A stretch of DNA of 41,856 nucleotides from Candidatus Omnitrophota bacterium (GTDB lineage Bacteria; Omnitrophota; Gorgyraeia; 2-01-FULL-45-10), in contig JAFGRN010000014.1 in the NCBI GenBank assembly GCA_016935115.1, forward strand, positions 1 to 41,856, in the 5' to 3' direction. The notes beneath the pieces were generated by a model, which was given only the letters and a program-made list of their open reading frames with translations, was not told the DNA's origin and did no database searches. Of this stretch, positions 13,628 through 35,731 are shown in pieces (the first letter of the stretch is position 1; each line of letters starts with the position of its first letter). The translations under genes were made by a program, and so were the position numbers.

Positions 13628-13638
13628 CTCCTCCGCAG

Positions 13639-13763
13639 TAGCGAAAATATCCCCCGCTCGTACCAGGTATCTTTCGGCATACCTATAAGGGAAAGTGTTA
13701 CAAGGCTCCCCACCCGGGCTGTAAGGGCTGACTACGGATGAGAAGCCGGGGATATTTTTGCTA
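13639..13763. repeat. MITE/REP-like element, copy A, with 16-bp terminal inverted repeats
   Basis: TAGCGAAAATATCCCC (13639-13654) / GGGGATATTTTTGCTA (13748-13763); internal 24-mer 13711-13734 is the exact reverse complement of 35148-35171. Confidence 0.85.
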
Positions 13764-13843
13764 TGGAAGCAGCTGCCGGGGACAGGTCTGAGAAGGATTT
13801 TGAAAACGTCCCTGATTCTACAGTAGCGAGGAGAGGGAGAGTT

Positions 13844-19669: not shown

Positions 19670-19703
19670 AGAGTGAGACGGGGGACAATAAGGGGGTTTA
19701 AAG

Positions 19704-31989: not shown

Positions 31990-32473
31990 TAGCGTCAGAT
32001 CGGGCGATCTAGCCGCGGAGATAAAGAAGAGGGTAAGGGGCAAGGTCACGATATCCGCCATCGGCAACATAATGAGGGGCGATGACGGCCTCGGCCCGAA
32101 ACTGATAGAGATGCTGAAGGCCCGCAATGTGAAGGCGGGCCTTTTTGATTGCGGAACGGCCCCGGAGAATTATATCTTTCCAATGCTCACGACGCTGTGC
32201 GATACTCTCATCCTCGTGGACGCGGCGGACATGGCCATAGAGCCGGGGCTCGCCAGGGTGCTTAATGTCGATGATATAGCGAATGTCAGCTTCTCCACGC
32301 ACTGCCCGTCGCCGCGGCTCTTCATAGACCTGCTGAAGACTGGAAACGAAAACCTCAATGTCTTCGTCATATCCGTACAACCCAAAGATACCTCTCTCGG
32401 GATCCCATTGAGCGCGGAGGTCCTCAAAGGGCTCGAAACCCTCGCGGACGCGCTCACAGAAGCGCTTGCCTGA
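31979..32473 (+). CDS. hycI: Hydrogenase maturation endopeptidase
   Basis: IGNIMRGDDGLGP, GTAPEN, LVDAAD, STH. Confidence 0.88.
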   Translation: MSDNSVRSGDLAAEIKKRVRGKVTISAIGNIMRGDDGLGPKLIEMLKARNVKAGLFDCGTAPENYIFPMLTTLCDTLILVDAADMAIEPGLARVLNVDDIANVSFSTHCPSPRLFIDLLKTGNENLNVFVISVQPKDTSLGIPLSAEVLKGLETLADALTEALA

Positions 32474-32475
32474 TA

Positions 32476-32720
32476 GGGATTTTTCAGCTATCAGCTTCAG
32501 GTGGAAGTGACCAAAGCGATCCACCTGGAGCGACTGTCGTAAAAATGCGATACCTATAGGCGATATACCGGGACAAGGAAACTGCTCCATGGCTTATGTG
32601 TATGCAGGTTCATTGGCCATCGCATTTTTACCACAGCGAATTTACATGCCTAATGTAAATTCGCGGCAAGCGAAAGGTGGTCGCTTGGTCACATCTGTAG
32701 GGATGGGACCGAAAAATCCC
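32476..32720. repeat. Structured palindromic intergenic element, copy C
   Basis: GGGATTTTTC/GAAAAATCCC ends; stems 32539-32551/32619-32631 and 32636-32647/32653-32664; motifs shared with 35495-35605. Confidence 0.8.
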
Positions 32721-32773
32721 GAAAAGGGACGTTTTAGCTTGAATTTACGCGTGATATTATACATAATTGAAAT

Positions 32774-34171
32774 ATGCTGAGCGCGACTATAGAAGAGATC
32801 AAGGATCCGCCGGAACCGCAGGAGATATTCCGTTCGATGCACGATCGCGCCTGCGGCTTCTTCCTGGATAGCGCATGTGATCCGGAAAAACTGGGGCGCT
32901 ATTCGTTGATGGGATGCGACCCGTTCCTGGTATTCAGGTCCAAGGGTGATGCCATCATGTTGGAACGCCCCGGCCGCCCGACGGAGAAATTGACGGGCAA
33001 TCCTTTCCTTGTATTAAAAAAACTGCTGAAAAAATACCCCGCAAGGCCTGTAAAGGAGATTCCTTTTGCCGGAGGCGCCGTTGGATATTTCTCCTACGAC
33101 CTGAAGAACTTCATAGAGGACCTGCCGGACCGCCCGCCGGATGACCTTAAGATTCCGGATTGCATCCTGGGGTTTTATGATTCGGTCGTTATATACGACA
33201 ACCTTAAGAAGAGGTGTTATATTTCGGACATGGGAATAACCGGAGGGGCTTCGAAGCGTCTGGCGAAACTTATCCGGGCCGCTTCGCGTAAAGGGACAGG
33301 CCCGGAGGATTTTAATCCGCCCAGGAACGTGAGGTCAAATTTCTCGAAACGTTCATATATGGCCGCCGTCGAAAGGGCAAAAGATTATATCCGGAAGGGC
33401 GATATATATCAGGTCAATCTTTCCCAAAGATTTAAAGCCGTTCTCGCCTGCGGGGCATTCGGCCTTTATATGCGGCTGAGGGAATGTTCTCCGGCGCCGT
33501 TTGCTTCATATCTAAATTTCGGACAGGTGAAGATATTAAGCTCATCGCCGGAACGTTTTCTCTTTAAGAGGGGCGGCTATATCGAGACCCGGCCCATAAA
33601 AGGGACCAGGCCGCGCGGCGCCGATAAGGTTTCAGACGCGGCTATGGAAGCGGAACTGAAAGCCAGCCGGAAGGACATGGCCGAGCATATCATGATAGTG
33701 GACCTGGAGCGCAATGACCTGGGCAGAATATGCCGCTACGGCTCCGTCGGAGTGGATGAATCGGCGGTCATAGAGAAGTATGCAAATGTCTTTCATATGG
33801 TTTCAACGGTCTCCGGCACCCTGAAAGACGGAGTCGATCCCGTCGACTGCCTTTTGGCGGCTTTCCCGGGAGGGTCGATAACGGGAGCGCCCAAAATCCG
33901 GTCGATGGAGATTATCGAGGAGCTTGAAAATGTGAAGAGGTCCGTATATACAGGAGCCATAGGGTATATAGGTTTCGATGGCAATATGGATACTTCCATA
34001 GTGATTAGAACCTTACTGGTTAAAGAAAGAGACGCGTATTTCCAGGTGGGCGGGGGCATAGTTGCCGATTCCGATCCCGAAAAAGAGTATGATGAGACCC
34101 TGCATAAAGCCGCCGGGCTCATTGACGCGCTCGGCCTTGAATCGAAGAATAAGGAGCCGATCCCGGCATGA
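32774..34171 (+). CDS. pabB: Aminodeoxychorismate synthase component I
   Basis: FFLDS, GRYS, GDIYQVNLSQ, SSPERF, PIKGT, IVDLERNDL, FPGGSITGAPK. Confidence 0.93.
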   Translation: MLSATIEEIKDPPEPQEIFRSMHDRACGFFLDSACDPEKLGRYSLMGCDPFLVFRSKGDAIMLERPGRPTEKLTGNPFLVLKKLLKKYPARPVKEIPFAGGAVGYFSYDLKNFIEDLPDRPPDDLKIPDCILGFYDSVVIYDNLKKRCYISDMGITGGASKRLAKLIRAASRKGTGPEDFNPPRNVRSNFSKRSYMAAVERAKDYIRKGDIYQVNLSQRFKAVLACGAFGLYMRLRECSPAPFASYLNFGQVKILSSSPERFLFKRGGYIETRPIKGTRPRGADKVSDAAMEAELKASRKDMAEHIMIVDLERNDLGRICRYGSVGVDESAVIEKYANVFHMVSTVSGTLKDGVDPVDCLLAAFPGGSITGAPKIRSMEIIEELENVKRSVYTGAIGYIGFDGNMDTSIVIRTLLVKERDAYFQVGGGIVADSDPEKEYDETLHKAAGLIDALGLESKNKEPIPA

Positions 34172-35019
34172 ACAAAGTCTGGCTGAATAAGAAGATAATT
34201 GACGCTGAAAGCGCTTGCATACCGATATCGGACAGGGGTTTCATGTACGGTGACGGCGTGTTTGAGACAATGCGTTCTTATTCCGGAATGGTTTTTAAGA
34301 TAGACGCCCATCTTGACAGGTTGTTCAATTCCCTTAAAGTGGCGAAATTTTCCAGTCCTTACGCAAAAGATTATCTGAAGCGGGAAATATACAGGCTGCT
34401 TGACGCCAATCGCCTTAAAGAAGCGTATATCCGCCTAATGATAACCAGGGGCGAGGGGCGATTCGGGATGGAACATAAGGATAGATTTATTCCTAATACC
34501 GTGATAGTCGTAAAAGAGTTCCACAGCTACCCGGCGCGCGTGTACGCTAAGGGTATAACGGCCGGAGTGGTCGATATAAGGCAGAATGAGCTATCACCGG
34601 TTTCGGGGATCAAATCCTTGAACTTCATTAATTACATCCTGGCGAGGTTTGAGGCGAAAGAGAAAGGTTATGACGAGGCCATTCTCGCGAATTCCAGGGG
34701 GCATATTGCCGAGGCGACCACGAGCAATATATTCATGGTGAAGGGAATGGGGCTTATAACACCATCCCCCGATAGCGGTATCCTGCCCGGCATTACAAGG
34801 ATGGTCGTGATGCAGCTGGCCAGGCGCCGCGGGATATTCGTCAAAGAGATGGCCGTTACCAGGCGCGAGCTATATAATTCAGATGAGATATTTCTCACCA
34901 ATTCACTCTCCGAGGTCCTGCCGGTAGTTGCCGTTGACGGGAAGAGGATAGGCCGCGGCGTTCCCGGAGAAACAACCCGGCTCCTTCACAGCCTCTACCG
35001 CAAAGAAACCTCCCGATAG
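34168..35019 (+). CDS. Class IV PLP enzyme, probable aminodeoxychorismate lyase (PabC/IlvE/Dat family)
   Basis: DRGFMYGDGVFET, HLDRL, IKSLN, E...SNIF, ILPGITR, FLTNS; overlaps pabB stop. Confidence 0.85.
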   Translation: MNKVWLNKKIIDAESACIPISDRGFMYGDGVFETMRSYSGMVFKIDAHLDRLFNSLKVAKFSSPYAKDYLKREIYRLLDANRLKEAYIRLMITRGEGRFGMEHKDRFIPNTVIVVKEFHSYPARVYAKGITAGVVDIRQNELSPVSGIKSLNFINYILARFEAKEKGYDEAILANSRGHIAEATTSNIFMVKGMGLITPSPDSGILPGITRMVVMQLARRRGIFVKEMAVTRRELYNSDEIFLTNSLSEVLPVVAVDGKRIGRGVPGETTRLLHSLYRKETSR

Positions 35020-35031
35020 AGATATAATTTG

Positions 35032-35663
35032 TAGCAAAAATATCCCCTGTGCCCCCGCTCCAGTTAAGCCATAATCCAAAGTTATGTTCGCACCGGGTAT
35101 CTTCCGGCACAGGGGGTGAAGTATATTACAAAGCGACCACCTTCCCATAGTCAGCCCTTACAGCCCGGGTGCATCGCGGGGACGTGGAAATTCCCCTGCG
35201 AGGAATTTCCACTCGGAAAGGTCGCTCGCTCTCCCGCCAAATAGGCCGGATGTCAAGCAGAGTATTTTAATATGTATTTGGCGGGATCCATGCCACGCCC
35301 TACGACTTTCGACGCCCCGCTCAACACCCGGGCTGTAAGGGCACTAATGATAAGCTCCAGGTGAGTCGCTTTGTAACACTTTCCCTGTATGCCGGAAGAT
35401 ACCCGTTACTCTCTCCCTGAAGCAAAAATATCGTATGGGGTGTCCCCAAATGGACCGTCCCCTGTTGCGGGGTGGCAGAACTTTTGGCACCTTGCTGGAG
35501 CGAATCTCTAAAATTTCGATACCTATAGGCGCTACAGACTTTATCATCGAAATTTTAGCGACAGCGAACGAGGAAGCCTATTGACGAGTGAGCGGCGAGC
35601 GAAAGCAAGTGCCAAAAGTAAATGCCACCACTGAGGGGATGGGGGCCCGGGGGATATTTTTGC
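35032..35663. repeat. Large composite palindromic element, copy B, with nested inverted repeats
   Basis: GCAAAAATATCCCC (35034-35047)/GGGGATATTTTTGC (35650-35663) enclosing two rods, 35094-35405 and 35457-35640. Confidence 0.88.
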
Positions 35664-35674
35664 CCTGATAGCAT

Positions 35675-35704
35675 TTGACCTTAATAGCATATATATGATA
35701 CAAT
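35675..35704 (+). promoter_or_regulatory. Sigma70 promoter of the LPS sugar operon
   Basis: TTGACC-N18-TACAAT with TG extension; SD AAGGA before ATG 35732. Confidence 0.65.
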
Positions 35705-35731
35705 AGCGCCCGAATTTCGAAAGGAAAAATT

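What the first reader, a model, noticed from the sequence alone, without database searches (positions are those of the whole stretch)
35032..35663. 630-bp non-coding element folding almost entirely into nested rods
Seen: outer stem 35034-35056/35641-35663. Rod 1: perfect 16 bp (35094-35109/35390-35405), 12 bp (35126-35137/35365-35376), 18 bp (35154-35171/35325-35342), side hairpin 35184-35212, 12 bp (35232-35243/35275-35286). A second left-end copy AGCAAAAATATC lies at 35421. Rod 2: 35457-35463/35634-35640, 35471-35477/35623-35629, 35480-35490/35609-35619, 35508-35520/35546-35558. No credible ORF. Inference: a REPIN/MITE-like composite grown by nested insertion, or a large structured RNA.
Basis: partly seen in the sequence, partly recalled or inferred. 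Interest (0 to 1): 0.78.

Follow-up and report, generated by a model that had tools for sequence, protein, structure and literature searches.

The report
Tandem pair of structured repeat elements
The 630-base hairpin-rich spacer is two folded, multi-copy repeat elements lying side by side in front of a gene, and one of the two families keeps the same fold in several bacterial phyla yet is missing from the catalogue of known RNA families.

Summary
35034-35663 folds far better than shuffles as RNA on both strands and as DNA, and it has no supported ORF.

It is neither one large RNA gene nor a simple Russian-doll nest. It is a tandem pair of two different structured interspersed repeats. A "Y" core (35150-35346, rod 1) sits in a shell B/B'. 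An "X" core (35470-35629, rod 2) is bracketed by an 11-nt terminal inverted repeat, GCAAAAATATC. A third copy of that terminus at 35034 makes the outer stem.

Repeat coverage in the organism's own genome (an Omnitrophota MAG) starts and stops exactly at 35034 and 35663. The same scaffold recurs on three other contigs.

- **X:** 31 of 45 base pairs show compensatory changes. It was found in 13 of 151 Omnitrophota genomes.
- **Y:** 37 of 41 pairs are compensatory. It was found in 44 of 151 Omnitrophota genomes and at 11-26 copies per genome in Aminicenantes, Auribacterota, Patescibacteria-type and Krumholzibacteriales MAGs.
- Neither family is in Rfam 15.

Copies are gained, lost and decayed between congeners without target duplications. 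They favour promoter-side spacers.

I read them as non-autonomous mobile elements that act through a folded single strand. The mobilising enzyme is unresolved, and a Y1/RAYT link is not supported for X or Y. An RNA function is not excluded.

The parts
34168..35019 (+). Upstream gene: class IV aminotransferase / aminodeoxychorismate-lyase-like. It follows a pabB-like ORF at 32774-34171.
   Evidence: ORF list. The best NCBIfam matches are below the curated cut-offs: PRK08320 at 281.6 bits, ilvE_I, pabC models.
35034..35044 (+). Terminal motif, type 1, left-end orientation (GCAAAAATATC). With 35045-35056 it forms the outer stem with 35641-35663.
   Evidence: Inverted repeat I2. The motif occurs 48 times exactly in the own genome against 0.67 expected.
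35034..35093 (+). Module A: the terminal motif plus the first ~35-50 nt of a third, high-copy repeat family ('Z', about 300 bp elsewhere).
   Evidence: Own-genome matches at C34:41682-41742, C35:3508-3567, C64:27267-27325 and C18:95-204. The sub-part 35060-35093 is at 7 further places. The Z family is seen.
35094..35145 (+). Shell B, the left arm of rod 1 outside the Y core.
   Evidence: Pairs with 35354-35409 (I3 and I5). The same shell encloses other cores on C18 and C43.
35150..35346 (+). Y core, a structured repeat element. P1/P2 are 35154-35181 with 35315-35342. The side hairpin P3 is 35184-35194 with 35202-35212. The apical stem is 35232-35243 with 35275-35286.
   Evidence: Covariance model R2 scores 151.7 bits.
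35354..35409 (+). Shell B', the right arm of rod 1.
   Evidence: I3, I5. It is conserved together with the linker and the next terminal motif on C18 (95%), C43 and C58.
35410..35421 (+). Linker between the two units (35406-35421 if the last bases of B' are included).
   Evidence: The same junction B'-linker-terminal motif is seen in 4 own-genome loci. Analogous linkers lie between paired units in G004.
35422..35432 (+). Terminal motif, type 1: the true left end of the X unit.
   Evidence: 11/11 complementary to 35653-35663 (I7). An orthologous unit with the same ends lies in front of the same gene in G004.
35435..35466 (+). Module C. Its minus strand reads two GGGGAC-type motifs.
   Evidence: Repeated at C64:17618-17657 (100%), C21, C69, C55, C43 and C14, and 3' of the Y1 gene at C20:15530-15557.
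35470..35629 (+). X core, a structured repeat element built as a three-way junction. P1/P2 are 35474-35496 with 35603-35626. P3 is 35505-35520 with 35546-35561, with a conserved 25-nt loop. P4 is about 35564-35575 with 35581-35595.
   Evidence: Covariance model R1 scores 162.9 bits.
35641..35663 (+). Right end of the X unit and of the whole composite. The last 11 nt are the terminal motif in right-end orientation (GATATTTTTGC).
   Evidence: I2, I7. Repeat coverage ends at 35663. A public-run contig runs from 35605 through the end into the downstream gene at 100% identity.
35675..35704 (+). Predicted promoter of the downstream gene (TTGACC, 18 nt, TACAAT). Its -35 hexamer starts 11 nt after the element.
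   Evidence: The same promoter block is conserved in G004 and G002 in front of the orthologous gene.
35732..36679 (+). Downstream gene: GSU2086-family (deoxyhypusine-synthase-like) protein.
   Evidence: NF052581 at 430.9 bits, above its cut-off of 250. Orthologues at 81-84% identity in G001, G002 and G004.

Best explanation
**What it is.** The 630 bp are a tandem pair of two non-autonomous, structured interspersed repeat elements lying in the spacer just upstream of a promoter.
- The left unit is a member of the Y family, wrapped in an extra palindromic shell (B/B').
- The right unit is a member of the X family, bracketed by an 11-nt terminal inverted repeat.
- A further copy of that terminal repeat, with the start of a third family (A/Z), lies at the far left and pairs with the right end. 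This gives the appearance of one nested rod.

**Shown.**
- Both cores belong to multi-copy families whose helices covary while their junction and loop nucleotides stay fixed.
- Copies differ in position between related species and decay by internal deletion.
- Filled and empty sites differ by the element alone, without a target duplication.

**Inferred.** The elements multiply as selfish DNA through a folded single-stranded intermediate. The conserved unpaired nucleotides are what a trans-acting enzyme recognises, so the helices only need to pair. New copies land in spacer DNA, often next to an existing unit.

**Not resolved.** I could not identify the enzyme. Y1/HUH (RAYT- or TIRYT-like) transposases are the best candidate in this genus, but they are not tied to X or Y by any test here.
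For: **1. Every part is repeated.**
- 60 matches of the spacer in the own 1.40-Mb genome. Coverage is bounded exactly at 35034 and 35663.
- By my count of the listing, about 67 of 158 contig ends lie in repeat regions.

**2. The scaffold recurs.** The order A, B, core, B', linker, terminal motif, C, core, terminal motif recurs with other cores on C18, and in part on C43 and C58, at 76-95% identity.

**3. The X family.**
- In a MAFFT alignment of 26 copies, 23 of 45 predicted pairs have compensatory double changes.
- In 72 model-aligned copies, 98.1% of cells are paired, 31 of 45 pairs are compensatory, and the covariation score is 0.414 against 0.120 for shuffles (0 of 500 reach it) and 0.02-0.06 for slid partners.
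- Found in 13 of 151 Omnitrophota genomes, all from four families: f1 7/7, f3 2/2, f12 2/2, f27 1/1.

**4. The Y family.**
- 25 of 41 pairs are compensatory in 20 close copies.
- Across phyla, 88.5% of cells are paired, 37 of 41 pairs are compensatory, and the score is 0.581 against 0.140 (0 of 500).
- Found in 44 of 151 Omnitrophota genomes. Copy numbers are 11, 17, 26, 13 and 18 in five genomes of other lineages. Only 4 of 101 genomes in the phylum of the Patescibacteria-type genome have it. This is a patchy, multi-copy distribution.

**5. Turnover.**
- G004 has a 600-bp pair of units where the window has a 34-bp spacer at 19670-19703.
- G004 has an X unit plus a remnant of Y where own contig C40 has about 25 bp.
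- No target duplication is visible in either case.
- The orthologous X unit in front of the same gene in G004 has lost P3 and P4 by a deletion between two GAGCG repeats.

**6. No autonomous version.** All 8 inverted pairs of the terminal motif in the 99%-complete G004 are 290 bp or less apart.

**7. Pairing of units.** By my reading, at least 6 of 9 type-1 units in G004 follow a type-2 unit within about 110 bp.

**8. Near-exclusive Watson-Crick pairing with few G.U.** X has 50 G.T against 18 A.C in 3031 cells. Y has 25 against 17 in 1114 cells and 56 against 43 in 1866 cells. This fits DNA-level pairing better than a typical RNA.

**9. Candidate enzyme.**
- PF01797 is present in 5 of 5 genomes of the genus, while PF07282 is in 0 of 5 and PF01548 in 1 of 5.
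- The own C20 copy matches NF047646 over its whole length at 72.4 bits.
- That copy is flanked by a perfect 60-nt inverted repeat of module R, and R abuts modules A and X elsewhere.
Against: - **No adjacency to Y1 genes.** No X or Y copy lies next to a Y1 gene: 0 Y1 genes in 232 loci (1.41 Mb) around X and Y copies. The flanks of the five genus Y1 loci that show inverted repeats (L123, L125-L128; none was found at L124) carry other repeats.
- **No discriminating co-occurrence.** PF01797 is in 123 of 151 Omnitrophota genomes, so its presence does not discriminate. The genome with most Y copies (G177, 26 copies) has no PF01797 match (its completeness is unknown).
- **No replication-strand bias.** The orientation bias expected of IS200/IS605-type elements is absent: 15 of 41 copies agree with local GC skew.
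- **RNA-like conservation pattern.** Fixed junction and loop sequences with complete turnover of helices over several phyla is also what a functional RNA looks like.
- **One strand per family is special.** Purine-purine oppositions pile up on one strand: X(+) has 22 A.G/G.A against 8 C.T/T.C. Y(+) has 26 C.T/T.C against 5, and 116 against 7, so the purine-purine pairs fall on Y(-).
- **Few, diverged insertion comparisons.** Only two filled/empty sites were found, between genomes about 25% diverged, so a 1-3 bp duplication could be missed.
- **No vehicle for horizontal spread.** 0 matches in viral contigs, plasmids and phages.
Confidence: 0.55

Rival explanations
1. X and Y are genes, or cis-elements, for functional structured RNAs present in many copies. 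The 630-bp region then encodes two such RNAs, possibly read from opposite strands. The repeats spread or persist because the RNA does something, for example a ribozyme-like or protein-binding fold, or an insulator or stabiliser at gene borders.
For: - Covariation is very strong in both families.
- Unpaired junction and loop nucleotides are nearly invariant across phyla, for example the CCATGCCCGCTCG and GCTCGCTC blocks and the P3 loop of Y.
- Purine-purine oppositions concentrate on X(+) and Y(-), the strands that carry the GAGCGAGCG-type blocks.
- In co-directional spacers that strand is antisense to the genes in 29 of 43 cases (p 0.03).
- The elements are enriched in divergent spacers: 22 of 70 against 68 of 463 other spacers, p 0.001.
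Against: - G.U pairs are rare and hardly commoner than A.C.
- The distribution is patchy: 44 of 151 genomes, 4 of 101 genomes, 0 of 47 in family f32.
- Copies are truncated or internally deleted even at orthologous sites.
- No consistent neighbour gene was seen.
- No promoter or terminator of their own was detected in the window copy.
- No Rfam family matches at E up to 10.
Confidence: 0.25
2. A true REPIN-RAYT system. X and Y would be REPIN-type doublets mobilised by the genome's RAYT genes, as in Pseudomonas or E. coli.
For: - RAYT-like Y1 genes are present: 3 in the own genome, full-length match to NF047646.
- One is flanked by inverted copies of a dispersed repeat, module R.
- R is interleaved with modules A, X and Y.
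- No target duplications were seen.
- Elements persist at orthologous sites across species.
Against: - The repeat flanking the RAYT-like gene is R, not X or Y.
- 0 Y1 genes in 232 X/Y loci.
- G177 has 26 Y copies and no PF01797 match.
- The cores are 150-200 nt branched folds, not two 20-40 nt palindromes.
- NF047646 scores 72.4 bits, below its cut-off of 80.
Confidence: 0.15
3. Classical MITEs of a DDE transposase that inserted into one another (a true nest), recognised by the 11-nt terminal inverted repeats.
For: - Shared terminal inverted repeats bracket different cores.
- A 15-nt direct repeat (35030-35044 and 35418-35432, 93%) flanks rod 1.
- Several outer ends are preceded by TA.
Against: - No consistent target duplication at outer ends.
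- No full-length element with these ends in a 99%-complete congener.
- The terminal repeats are not conserved outside Omnitrophota, while the Y core is.
- Conservation and covariation run through the whole core, which a DDE enzyme does not require.
Confidence: 0.05
4. An assembly artefact: a fold-back or chimeric path through repeats.
For: - The window's gene order (pabC-like, element, GSU2086-family gene) differs from that of all three congeners with both genes. There the orthologue of own C33:222-1297 precedes the GSU2086-family gene, and in two of the three the orthologue of own C24:159-1500 follows the pabC-like gene.
- Both C33 and C24 start inside repeat modules.
- 40-110 nt stretches around 35354-35463 are 95-100% identical to other copies.
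Against: - The arms are diverged (86-91%) and bulged.
- The same internal order of modules occurs on C18, C43 and C58 with diverged sequence.
- The X unit with the same ends lies at the same distance from the same promoter in G004.
- Public-run contigs match 35067-35203, 35434-35484 and 35605-36400 without a difference.
- A chimeric join could therefore change which flank is attached, but not the architecture.
Confidence: 0.03

Closest known systems
REPINs / REP sequences with RAYT transposases
   Same: - Short non-coding palindromic repeats in spacers, present in many copies.
- Often in inverted or paired arrangement that folds into long hairpins.
- No autonomous copy.
- Vertical persistence over long times.
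- A Y1/HUH gene flanked by its own repeat exists in the genome (module R).

Sources: search listing and abstract starts of PMC3337134, PMC3116915 and 10.1101/2021.07.10.451892; abstract of PMC3733652.
   Different: - The X and Y cores are 150-200 nt branched folds with conserved loops, not pairs of 20-40 nt palindromes.
- They do not flank Y1 genes.
- They occur in a genome without a detectable Y1 gene.
- They favour divergent, promoter-side spacers. The abstract of PMC3733652 says REPs lie mostly between unidirectional and convergent ORFs.
TIRtrons / TIRYT genes with dispersed TIR repeats (Di Nocera et al. 2013, PMC3733652, section 16 read)
   Same: - Y1 genes flanked by long inverted repeats.
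- Some of those repeats share a GGGGWSAS motif, form moderately abundant families and occur in dimers or clusters.
- Module R begins GGGGACAG, and the minus strand of module C reads GGGGACAC.
   Different: This description fits modules R and C only. X and Y lack the motif and are not next to the Y1 genes.
BIMEs of E. coli and BOX elements of pneumococci (recalled, no call)
   Same: Mosaic spacer elements built from a small set of modules in varying combinations.
   Different: Those modules are short and species-restricted. Here two of the modules are large conserved folds found across families (X) or phyla (Y).
ERIC/IRU elements of enterobacteria and other long-hairpin MITEs (recalled; abstract starts of the reviews PMC2229807 and PMC10969869 seen only in the listing)
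   Same: Imperfect palindromes of about 100-200 bp, conserved in sequence over several genera, located in spacers, with copy numbers of tens.
   Different: As I recall, ERIC-type elements have TA target duplications and a simple hairpin. X and Y show no duplication, have side branches, and Y crosses phylum borders.
Large or multi-copy structured non-coding RNAs (for example HEARO/IscB RNA, OLE, ROOL; recalled)
   Same: Size range, strong covariation, conserved junctions, and for HEARO multi-copy status through a mobile element.
   Different: - No match to any of the 4227 Rfam 15 models, even at E up to 10.
- Few G.U pairs.
- Patchy distribution and decaying copies.

Membership tests
REPIN-RAYT system | A RAYT (Y1/HUH) gene is present in the genome | tested here: met
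   PF01797 has 3 matches in the own genome and is present in 5 of 5 genus genomes. NF047646 matches over its whole length at 72.4 bits, under the cut-off of 80.
REPIN-RAYT system | The RAYT gene is flanked by the repeat it mobilises | tested here: not met
   This is met for module R at C20 (60-nt perfect inverted repeat). It is not met for X or Y: no X or Y in the flanks of six Y1 loci, and 0 Y1 genes in 232 X/Y loci.
REPIN-RAYT system | The unit is two short (20-40 nt) REP palindromes in inverted orientation | tested here: not met
   The cores are 150-200 nt with three-way junctions.
REPIN-RAYT system | The RAYT binds and cuts the repeat as single-stranded DNA | not testable with these tools
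   Needs biochemistry.
DDE-type MITE | Terminal inverted repeats | tested here: met
   GCRAAAATATC ... GATATTTTYGC and GATTTTTCGGC ... GCCGAAAAATC bracket X and Y copies.
DDE-type MITE | Target-site duplication of fixed length | tested here: not met
   None at the outer ends listed, nor at the two filled/empty comparisons. The divergence of those genomes limits resolution.
DDE-type MITE | A parent IS with the same ends | tested here: not met
   All inverted motif pairs in G004 are 290 bp or less apart. Other genomes were not examined for this.
IS200/IS605-derived non-autonomous elements | Orientation bias with the direction of replication | tested here: not met
   15 of 41 X copies agree with local GC skew.
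IS200/IS605-derived non-autonomous elements | TnpB and its guide RNA, or TnpA, in the element family | tested here: not met
   PF07282 is in 0 of 5 genus genomes. No Y1 gene lies next to X or Y.
Any Rfam 15 RNA family | Score at or above the family's gathering threshold | tested here: not met
   Only a tRNA elsewhere in the window. No match at E up to 10 in 34900-35850. None in 18 Y loci of other phyla. Only chance-level rows.
Functional structured RNA (generic) | Conserved secondary structure supported by covariation | tested here: met
Functional structured RNA (generic) | Transcribed as a discrete RNA | tested here: inconclusive
   No RNA run holds the stretch, and the two RNA runs of the same study gave nothing. 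This is no evidence either way.

The most novel reading that the evidence does not exclude
Y, and its lineage-restricted companion X, would be a so far undescribed class of self-propagating structured nucleic-acid elements. Each is a 150-200 nt branched fold whose invariant junction nucleotides, rather than any terminal repeat or neighbouring transposase gene, are the functional core. The fold would either act itself (for example as a catalytic or guide-like RNA or single-stranded DNA) or recruit a ubiquitous host enzyme. That would explain how it reaches 10-26 copies per genome in at least five or six phyla of mostly uncultured bacteria, including 0.7-Mb Patescibacteria-type genomes, without a dedicated transposase.
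Probability: 0.3. Interest if true: 0.9.

Novelty: new variant of a known kind. Interest (0 to 1): 0.78.

Why it matters
- **A new structured family.** The finding leads to two families of strongly covarying, multi-copy folds that no Rfam 15 model covers. One of them (Y) is shared by Omnitrophota, Aminicenantes, Auribacterota, Krumholzibacteriales and Patescibacteria-type genomes. Conserved junctions with freely covarying helices across phyla are rare outside known RNAs and ribozymes. The family is therefore a concrete candidate either for a new kind of mobile element with a structure-defined recognition core or for a new RNA class.
- **A practical problem for assembly.** These elements break short-read assemblies: about two fifths of this MAG's contig ends lie in repeats. 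They also mark a place where this contig's gene order departs from all congeners, so they matter for MAG quality and for detecting rearrangements.
- **A possible effect on gene expression.** They sit preferentially on the promoter side of genes, here 11 nt from a -35 box, which makes such an effect testable.

Tried and rejected
- **Rfam.** Whole window at gathering thresholds, the region at E up to 10, 18 Y loci of other phyla and two Y cores at E up to 10. Nothing relevant.
- **Expression.** No RNA holder is listed for the stretch. The two RNA runs of the same study laid nothing.
- **Read support.** Only k-mer contigs were available. They break at the repeats, so they cannot test the long-range join.
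- **Orientation against GC skew.** No bias, 15 of 41.
- **Other mobility genes in the genus.** PF07282 in 0 of 5 genomes, PF01548 in 1 of 5. Other transposase families were not searched.
- **Association of PF01797 with X.** Uninformative, because PF01797 is in 123 of 151 genomes.
- **Y1 gene next to X or Y.** None in 232 loci.
- **Autonomous element bounded by the terminal motif.** None in G004.
- **Genes between inverted Y pairs (L354, L416, L355).** Ordinary host genes by their translations; no family scan was run.
- **Target duplications.** None seen.
- **A TTGAC box after the right terminal motif.** Present within 11-24 nt in 4 of 57 motif instances in the own genome, where many instances are internal junctions, and in 4 of 18 instances in the G004 loci (4 of 9 outer right ends by my reading). 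I treat it as a hint only.
- **Vehicles.** 0 matches of the Y signature in viral contigs. No match of the 630 bp in plasmids or phages.
- **Literature.**
  - Omnitrophota with 'repeat'.
  - Omnitrophica/Omnitrophota with MITE, palindromic-element or structured-RNA terms.
  - Four 12-letter strings of the Y signature (two unrelated papers).
  - Omnitrophota/Aminicenantes with 'noncoding RNA' and 'covariation' (0 papers).
  - None describes these elements.
- **The two 1.6-kb high-coverage regions (C7, C20)** are not CRISPR arrays.
Full report
**1. The observation**

The window is contig C34 of a 1.40-Mb, 79-contig genome (82% complete). Its nearest relatives by a flanking gene carry titles of Candidatus Omnitrophota MAGs.

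The finding lies in a 712-bp spacer. Upstream is a class IV aminotransferase / pabC-like gene (34168-35019). Downstream is a GSU2086-family, deoxyhypusine-synthase-like gene (35732-36679).

- The spacer folds far better than dinucleotide shuffles: RNA + strand z -9.8, RNA - strand z -12.2, and DNA z -12.6 for the 630 bp.
- Only ORFs of 81 aa or less overlap it, and the four I scanned have no Pfam support.

**2. It is made of repeated modules**

- The spacer has 60 matches in its own genome.
- BLAST coverage by other copies is zero up to 35033, begins at 35034, ends at 35663 and is zero beyond.
- A self-comparison of the genome finds 282 repeat regions totalling 54 kb. By my count of that listing, about 67 of 158 contig ends lie in such regions, so these repeats are what fragments the assembly.

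From break points and matches, the element reads as follows:
- terminal motif GCAAAAATATC plus module A (35034-35093)
- shell B (35094-35145)
- core Y (35150-35346)
- shell B' (35354-35409)
- linker
- second terminal motif (35422-35432)
- module C (35435-35466)
- core X (35470-35629)
- right end with the inverted terminal motif (35641-35663)

The 11-mer occurs 48 times exactly in the genome against 0.67 expected. The same order of modules, with other cores in the same shells, is found on contig C18, and in part on C43 and C58, at 76-95% identity. The composite is therefore itself a repeated scaffold, not a one-off nest.

**3. The X core**

Copies from the congener G004 show a conserved core of about 158 nt. 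It is bracketed either by GCGAAAATATC ... GATATTTTCGC (type 1) or by GATTTTTCGGC ... GCCGAAAAATC (type 2).

- **Structure.** An alignment of 26 copies from many genomes gives a three-way junction: a long closing stem, a hairpin with a conserved 25-nt loop, and a second hairpin. 23 of 45 pairs show compensatory double changes.
- **Distribution in the phylum.** A covariance model (R1) finds X in 13 of 151 Omnitrophota genomes sampled over the phylum. All are from four families: f1 7/7, f3 2/2, f12 2/2, f27 1/1. Up to 16 hits per genome were found, with only 19 candidates scored per genome. The model also finds a variant of about 200 nt.
- **Distribution outside the phylum.** An IUPAC signature of X scanned over one genome for each of 185,579 species gave 88 stretches. 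The model confirmed 72 matches in 63 of the 80 loci returned: 58 titled Omnitrophota and 5 titled 'uncultured Planctomycetia'. None of the 16 loci from other taxa was confirmed.
- **Covariation.** On those 72 copies, 98.1% of cells are paired and 31 of 45 pairs are compensatory. The covariation score is 0.414, against 0.120 for shuffled partners (0 of 500 reach it) and 0.02-0.06 for slid partners. This alignment is fitted to the model, which favours the structure. The MAFFT-based result does not have that bias.
- **Own genome.** It holds 10 X hits, five of them cut by contig ends.

**4. The Y core**

Rod 1's centre is a second family.

- **Structure.** The apical hairpin comes in two variants. 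The window's 12-bp stem 35232-35243/35275-35286 is one of them and is shared with copies in other genera, so it is not an insertion. In 20 copies, 25 of 41 pairs are compensatory.
- **Distribution in the phylum.** Model R2 finds Y in 44 of 151 Omnitrophota genomes, in many families but in 0 of 47 genomes of family f32. At most 17 candidates were scored per genome.
- **Conservation pattern.** Aligned over the phylum, the helices turn over completely: 40 of 41 pairs have two or more Watson-Crick types. Blocks such as GCTCGCTC, CCATGCCCGCTCG and the P3 loop stay fixed.
- **Other phyla.** R2 confirmed 52 matches in 47 of the 80 loci returned. Their titles include Aminicenantes (two of them complete chromosomes), Auribacterota, Krumholzibacteriales, several Patescibacteria-type lineages and some bins with broad labels.
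- **Covariation across phyla.** 88.5% of cells are paired and 37 of 41 pairs are compensatory. The score is 0.581 against 0.140 for shuffles (0 of 500) and 0.08-0.13 for slid partners.
- **Copy numbers elsewhere.** Whole-genome searches give 11, 17, 26, 13 and 18 copies in five such genomes, one of them only 0.7 Mb. In that genome's phylum only 4 of 101 sampled genomes have a hit.
- **Termini.** Outside Omnitrophota the terminal motifs are not conserved. Other lineage-specific outer stems take their place.
- **Not catalogued.** No Rfam 15 family matches. Four literature searches found no description.

**5. Evidence that the elements move and decay**

- **First filled/empty site.** G004 carries two units (X in type-2 ends, a 41-nt linker, the 200-nt X variant in type-1 ends; about 600 bp in all) between two genes. 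In the window the orthologous genes are separated by 34 bp (19670-19703).
- **Second filled/empty site.** G004 has a type-1 X unit preceded by a remnant of a Y unit (a type-2-like left end plus the first bases of Y's closing stem). Own contig C40 has about 25 bp there.
- In neither case is a target duplication visible, though the genomes are about 25% diverged.
- **Persistence and decay.** The X unit of the window has an orthologue in G004 with the same terminal motifs. It ends 7 nt (window: 3 nt) from the same conserved promoter block, but has lost both hairpins by a deletion between two GAGCG repeats. G002 has no such unit there.
- Several G004 element sites correspond to repeat-bearing contig ends in the own genome.
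- Sites can therefore persist across species, copies decay, and new sites arise.
- **No autonomous copy.** In the 99%-complete G004, all eight inverted pairs of the type-1 motif are 290 bp or less apart, so no gene-carrying element with these ends exists there.
- **Pairing.** By my reading, at least 6 of 9 type-1 units in G004 directly follow a type-2 unit. In four of them, and in the window, Y comes first and X second on the same strand.

**6. Which enzyme?**

- Of three mobility families tested in the five genomes of the genus, only Y1/HUH transposase genes are general: PF01797 in 5 of 5, PF01548 in 1 of 5, PF07282 in 0 of 5.
- The three own copies (190-229 aa) match the NCBIfam model for REP-associated tyrosine transposases over its whole length, at 72.4 bits (cut-off 80) for the two scanned.
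- The C20 copy, with a MerR-type ORF beside it, is flanked by a perfect 60-nt inverted repeat of module R. R begins GGGGACAG, occurs at about 16 loci, and directly abuts modules A and X elsewhere.
- The flanking repeats of the genus Y1 genes that have them (L123, L125-L128) begin with a GGGAC-type motif. This fits the 'TIRYT/TIRtron' description and the GGGGWSAS motif of Di Nocera et al. 2013 (PMC3733652; abstract and section 16 read).

The link does not extend to X and Y:
- None lies in the flanks of six Y1 loci.
- No Y1 gene lies in 232 loci (1.41 Mb) around X or Y copies.
- PF01797 is in 123 of 151 Omnitrophota genomes, so it does not discriminate.
- The genome with most Y copies has no PF01797 match.
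- X copies also show no orientation bias with GC skew: 15 of 41 agree.

**7. RNA or DNA?**

- **Pairing type.** Pairing is almost purely Watson-Crick. G.T is only mildly commoner than A.C:
  - X: 50 against 18, with 19 of the 50 from one column.
  - Y: 25 against 17, and 56 against 43.

  This argues for constraint at the DNA level or on both strands.
- **Strand asymmetry.** Mismatches are not strand-neutral. Purine-purine oppositions concentrate on X(+) (22 against 8) and on Y(-) (26 against 5, and 116 against 7, counted as C.T on Y(+)). These are the strands that carry paired GAGCGAGCG-like blocks. I cannot explain this.
- **Placement.** With a crude ORF-based gene call:
  - Elements are enriched in divergent spacers: 22 of 70 against 68 of 463 other spacers in the same loci (p 0.001).
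  - They are depleted in convergent spacers: 5 of 70 against 77 of 463 (p 0.05).
  - In co-directional spacers the GAGCGAGCG strand is antisense to the genes in 29 of 43 cases (p 0.03).
- **Distance to the promoter.** In the window the element ends 11 nt before the -35 box of the downstream promoter. In G004, 4 of 9 outer right ends are followed by TTGAC at 11-20 nt.
- No RNA data could be obtained.

**8. Caveat on the locus**

- In all three congeners with both genes, the gene upstream of the GSU2086-family gene is the orthologue of own C33:222-1297.
- In two of the three (G001 and G002), the gene downstream of the pabC-like gene is the orthologue of own C24:159-1500. No homologue was detected downstream of pabC in the G004 locus.
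- In the own genome both C33 and C24 sit at contig ends that start in repeat modules.
- Either recombination between dispersed composites rearranged this genome, or contig C34 is chimeric within the element.
- The architecture itself does not depend on this. It recurs on other contigs, and the right-hand unit is orthologous in G004.

**9. Verdict**

It is a tandem pair of two structured interspersed repeats with shared terminal repeats, one copy of a recurring scaffold.

- **Most likely reading (0.55).** These are non-autonomous mobile elements that work through a folded single strand, with the partner enzyme unknown.
- **Main rival (0.25).** A functional RNA.
- **Rejected.** A plain RAYT-REPIN system, a DDE-MITE nest and an artefact all fail one or more of their defining tests.

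The unexpected result is the Y family: a strongly covarying fold, uncatalogued in Rfam 15, present at multiple copies in several phyla.

Noticed in passing
window 32472-32722: A second composite repeat in the window. It holds a ~200-nt variant of the X core (32500-32698, 86.9 bits with model R1) between type-2-like ends, in the spacer before the pabB-like gene.
   Followed up: partly
window 13638-13821: A 125-bp element bounded by the type-1 terminal motif (13641 and 13761) with shell-B-like content. It is followed directly by a copy of module R (13778-13813), the repeat that flanks the Y1 gene on C20.
   Followed up: partly
window 41676-41856 (contig end): The contig ends inside a copy of the terminal motif plus module A and the 'Z' family. 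Z has the highest copy number of these repeats (about 15-20 places), and a related element fills the spacer upstream of the orthologous gene in a related MAG (L031) and in G001. Its structure was not analysed.
   Followed up: no
window 19670-19703: An empty site: a 34-bp spacer where the congener G004 carries two X-type units, about 600 bp.
   Followed up: yes
window 35020-35731, with own contigs C33:1-219 and C24:1-75: Break of gene order at the element relative to three congeners and other relatives. Either a rearrangement between dispersed repeats or a chimeric contig.
   Followed up: partly
own genome C20:15086-16277 (L127 806-1997): A Y1/HUH transposase gene (190 aa) and a MerR-type ORF (94 aa) enclosed by a perfect 60-nt inverted repeat made of 24-nt tandem units beginning GGGGACAGG. 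This matches the published 'TIRtron' pattern.
   Followed up: partly
own genome, e.g. C7:15200-16831, C20:1666-3652, C65:1207-1593: Another, unrelated short palindromic repeat family (built around CGTCATTGCGAGG ... CCTCGCAATGACG) with the highest BLAST coverage in the genome (24-37). The two 1.6-kb regions are similar gene-bearing segments flanked by it, not CRISPR arrays.
   Followed up: partly
own genome, contig pairs such as C5/C22, C13/C70, C14/C48, C30/C42: Two-copy segments of about 1 kb shared between contigs. These may be duplicated contigs or strain variants in the MAG.
   Followed up: no
L354 1063-4897, L416 1649-4978, L355 2189-4086: Pairs of Y-type elements in inverted orientation enclosing 1.6-3.5 kb of apparently ordinary host genes, in Aminicenantes-type and Omnitrophota MAGs. 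Whether such pairs move or invert the enclosed genes was not examined.
   Followed up: no
G004 loci L111, L112, L113, L116, L118, L119, L318: In G004, 7 of 9 outer right ends of type-1 units are followed at once by YGTAG, an unpaired GTAG-like tag. This is not seen in the own genome.
   Followed up: no
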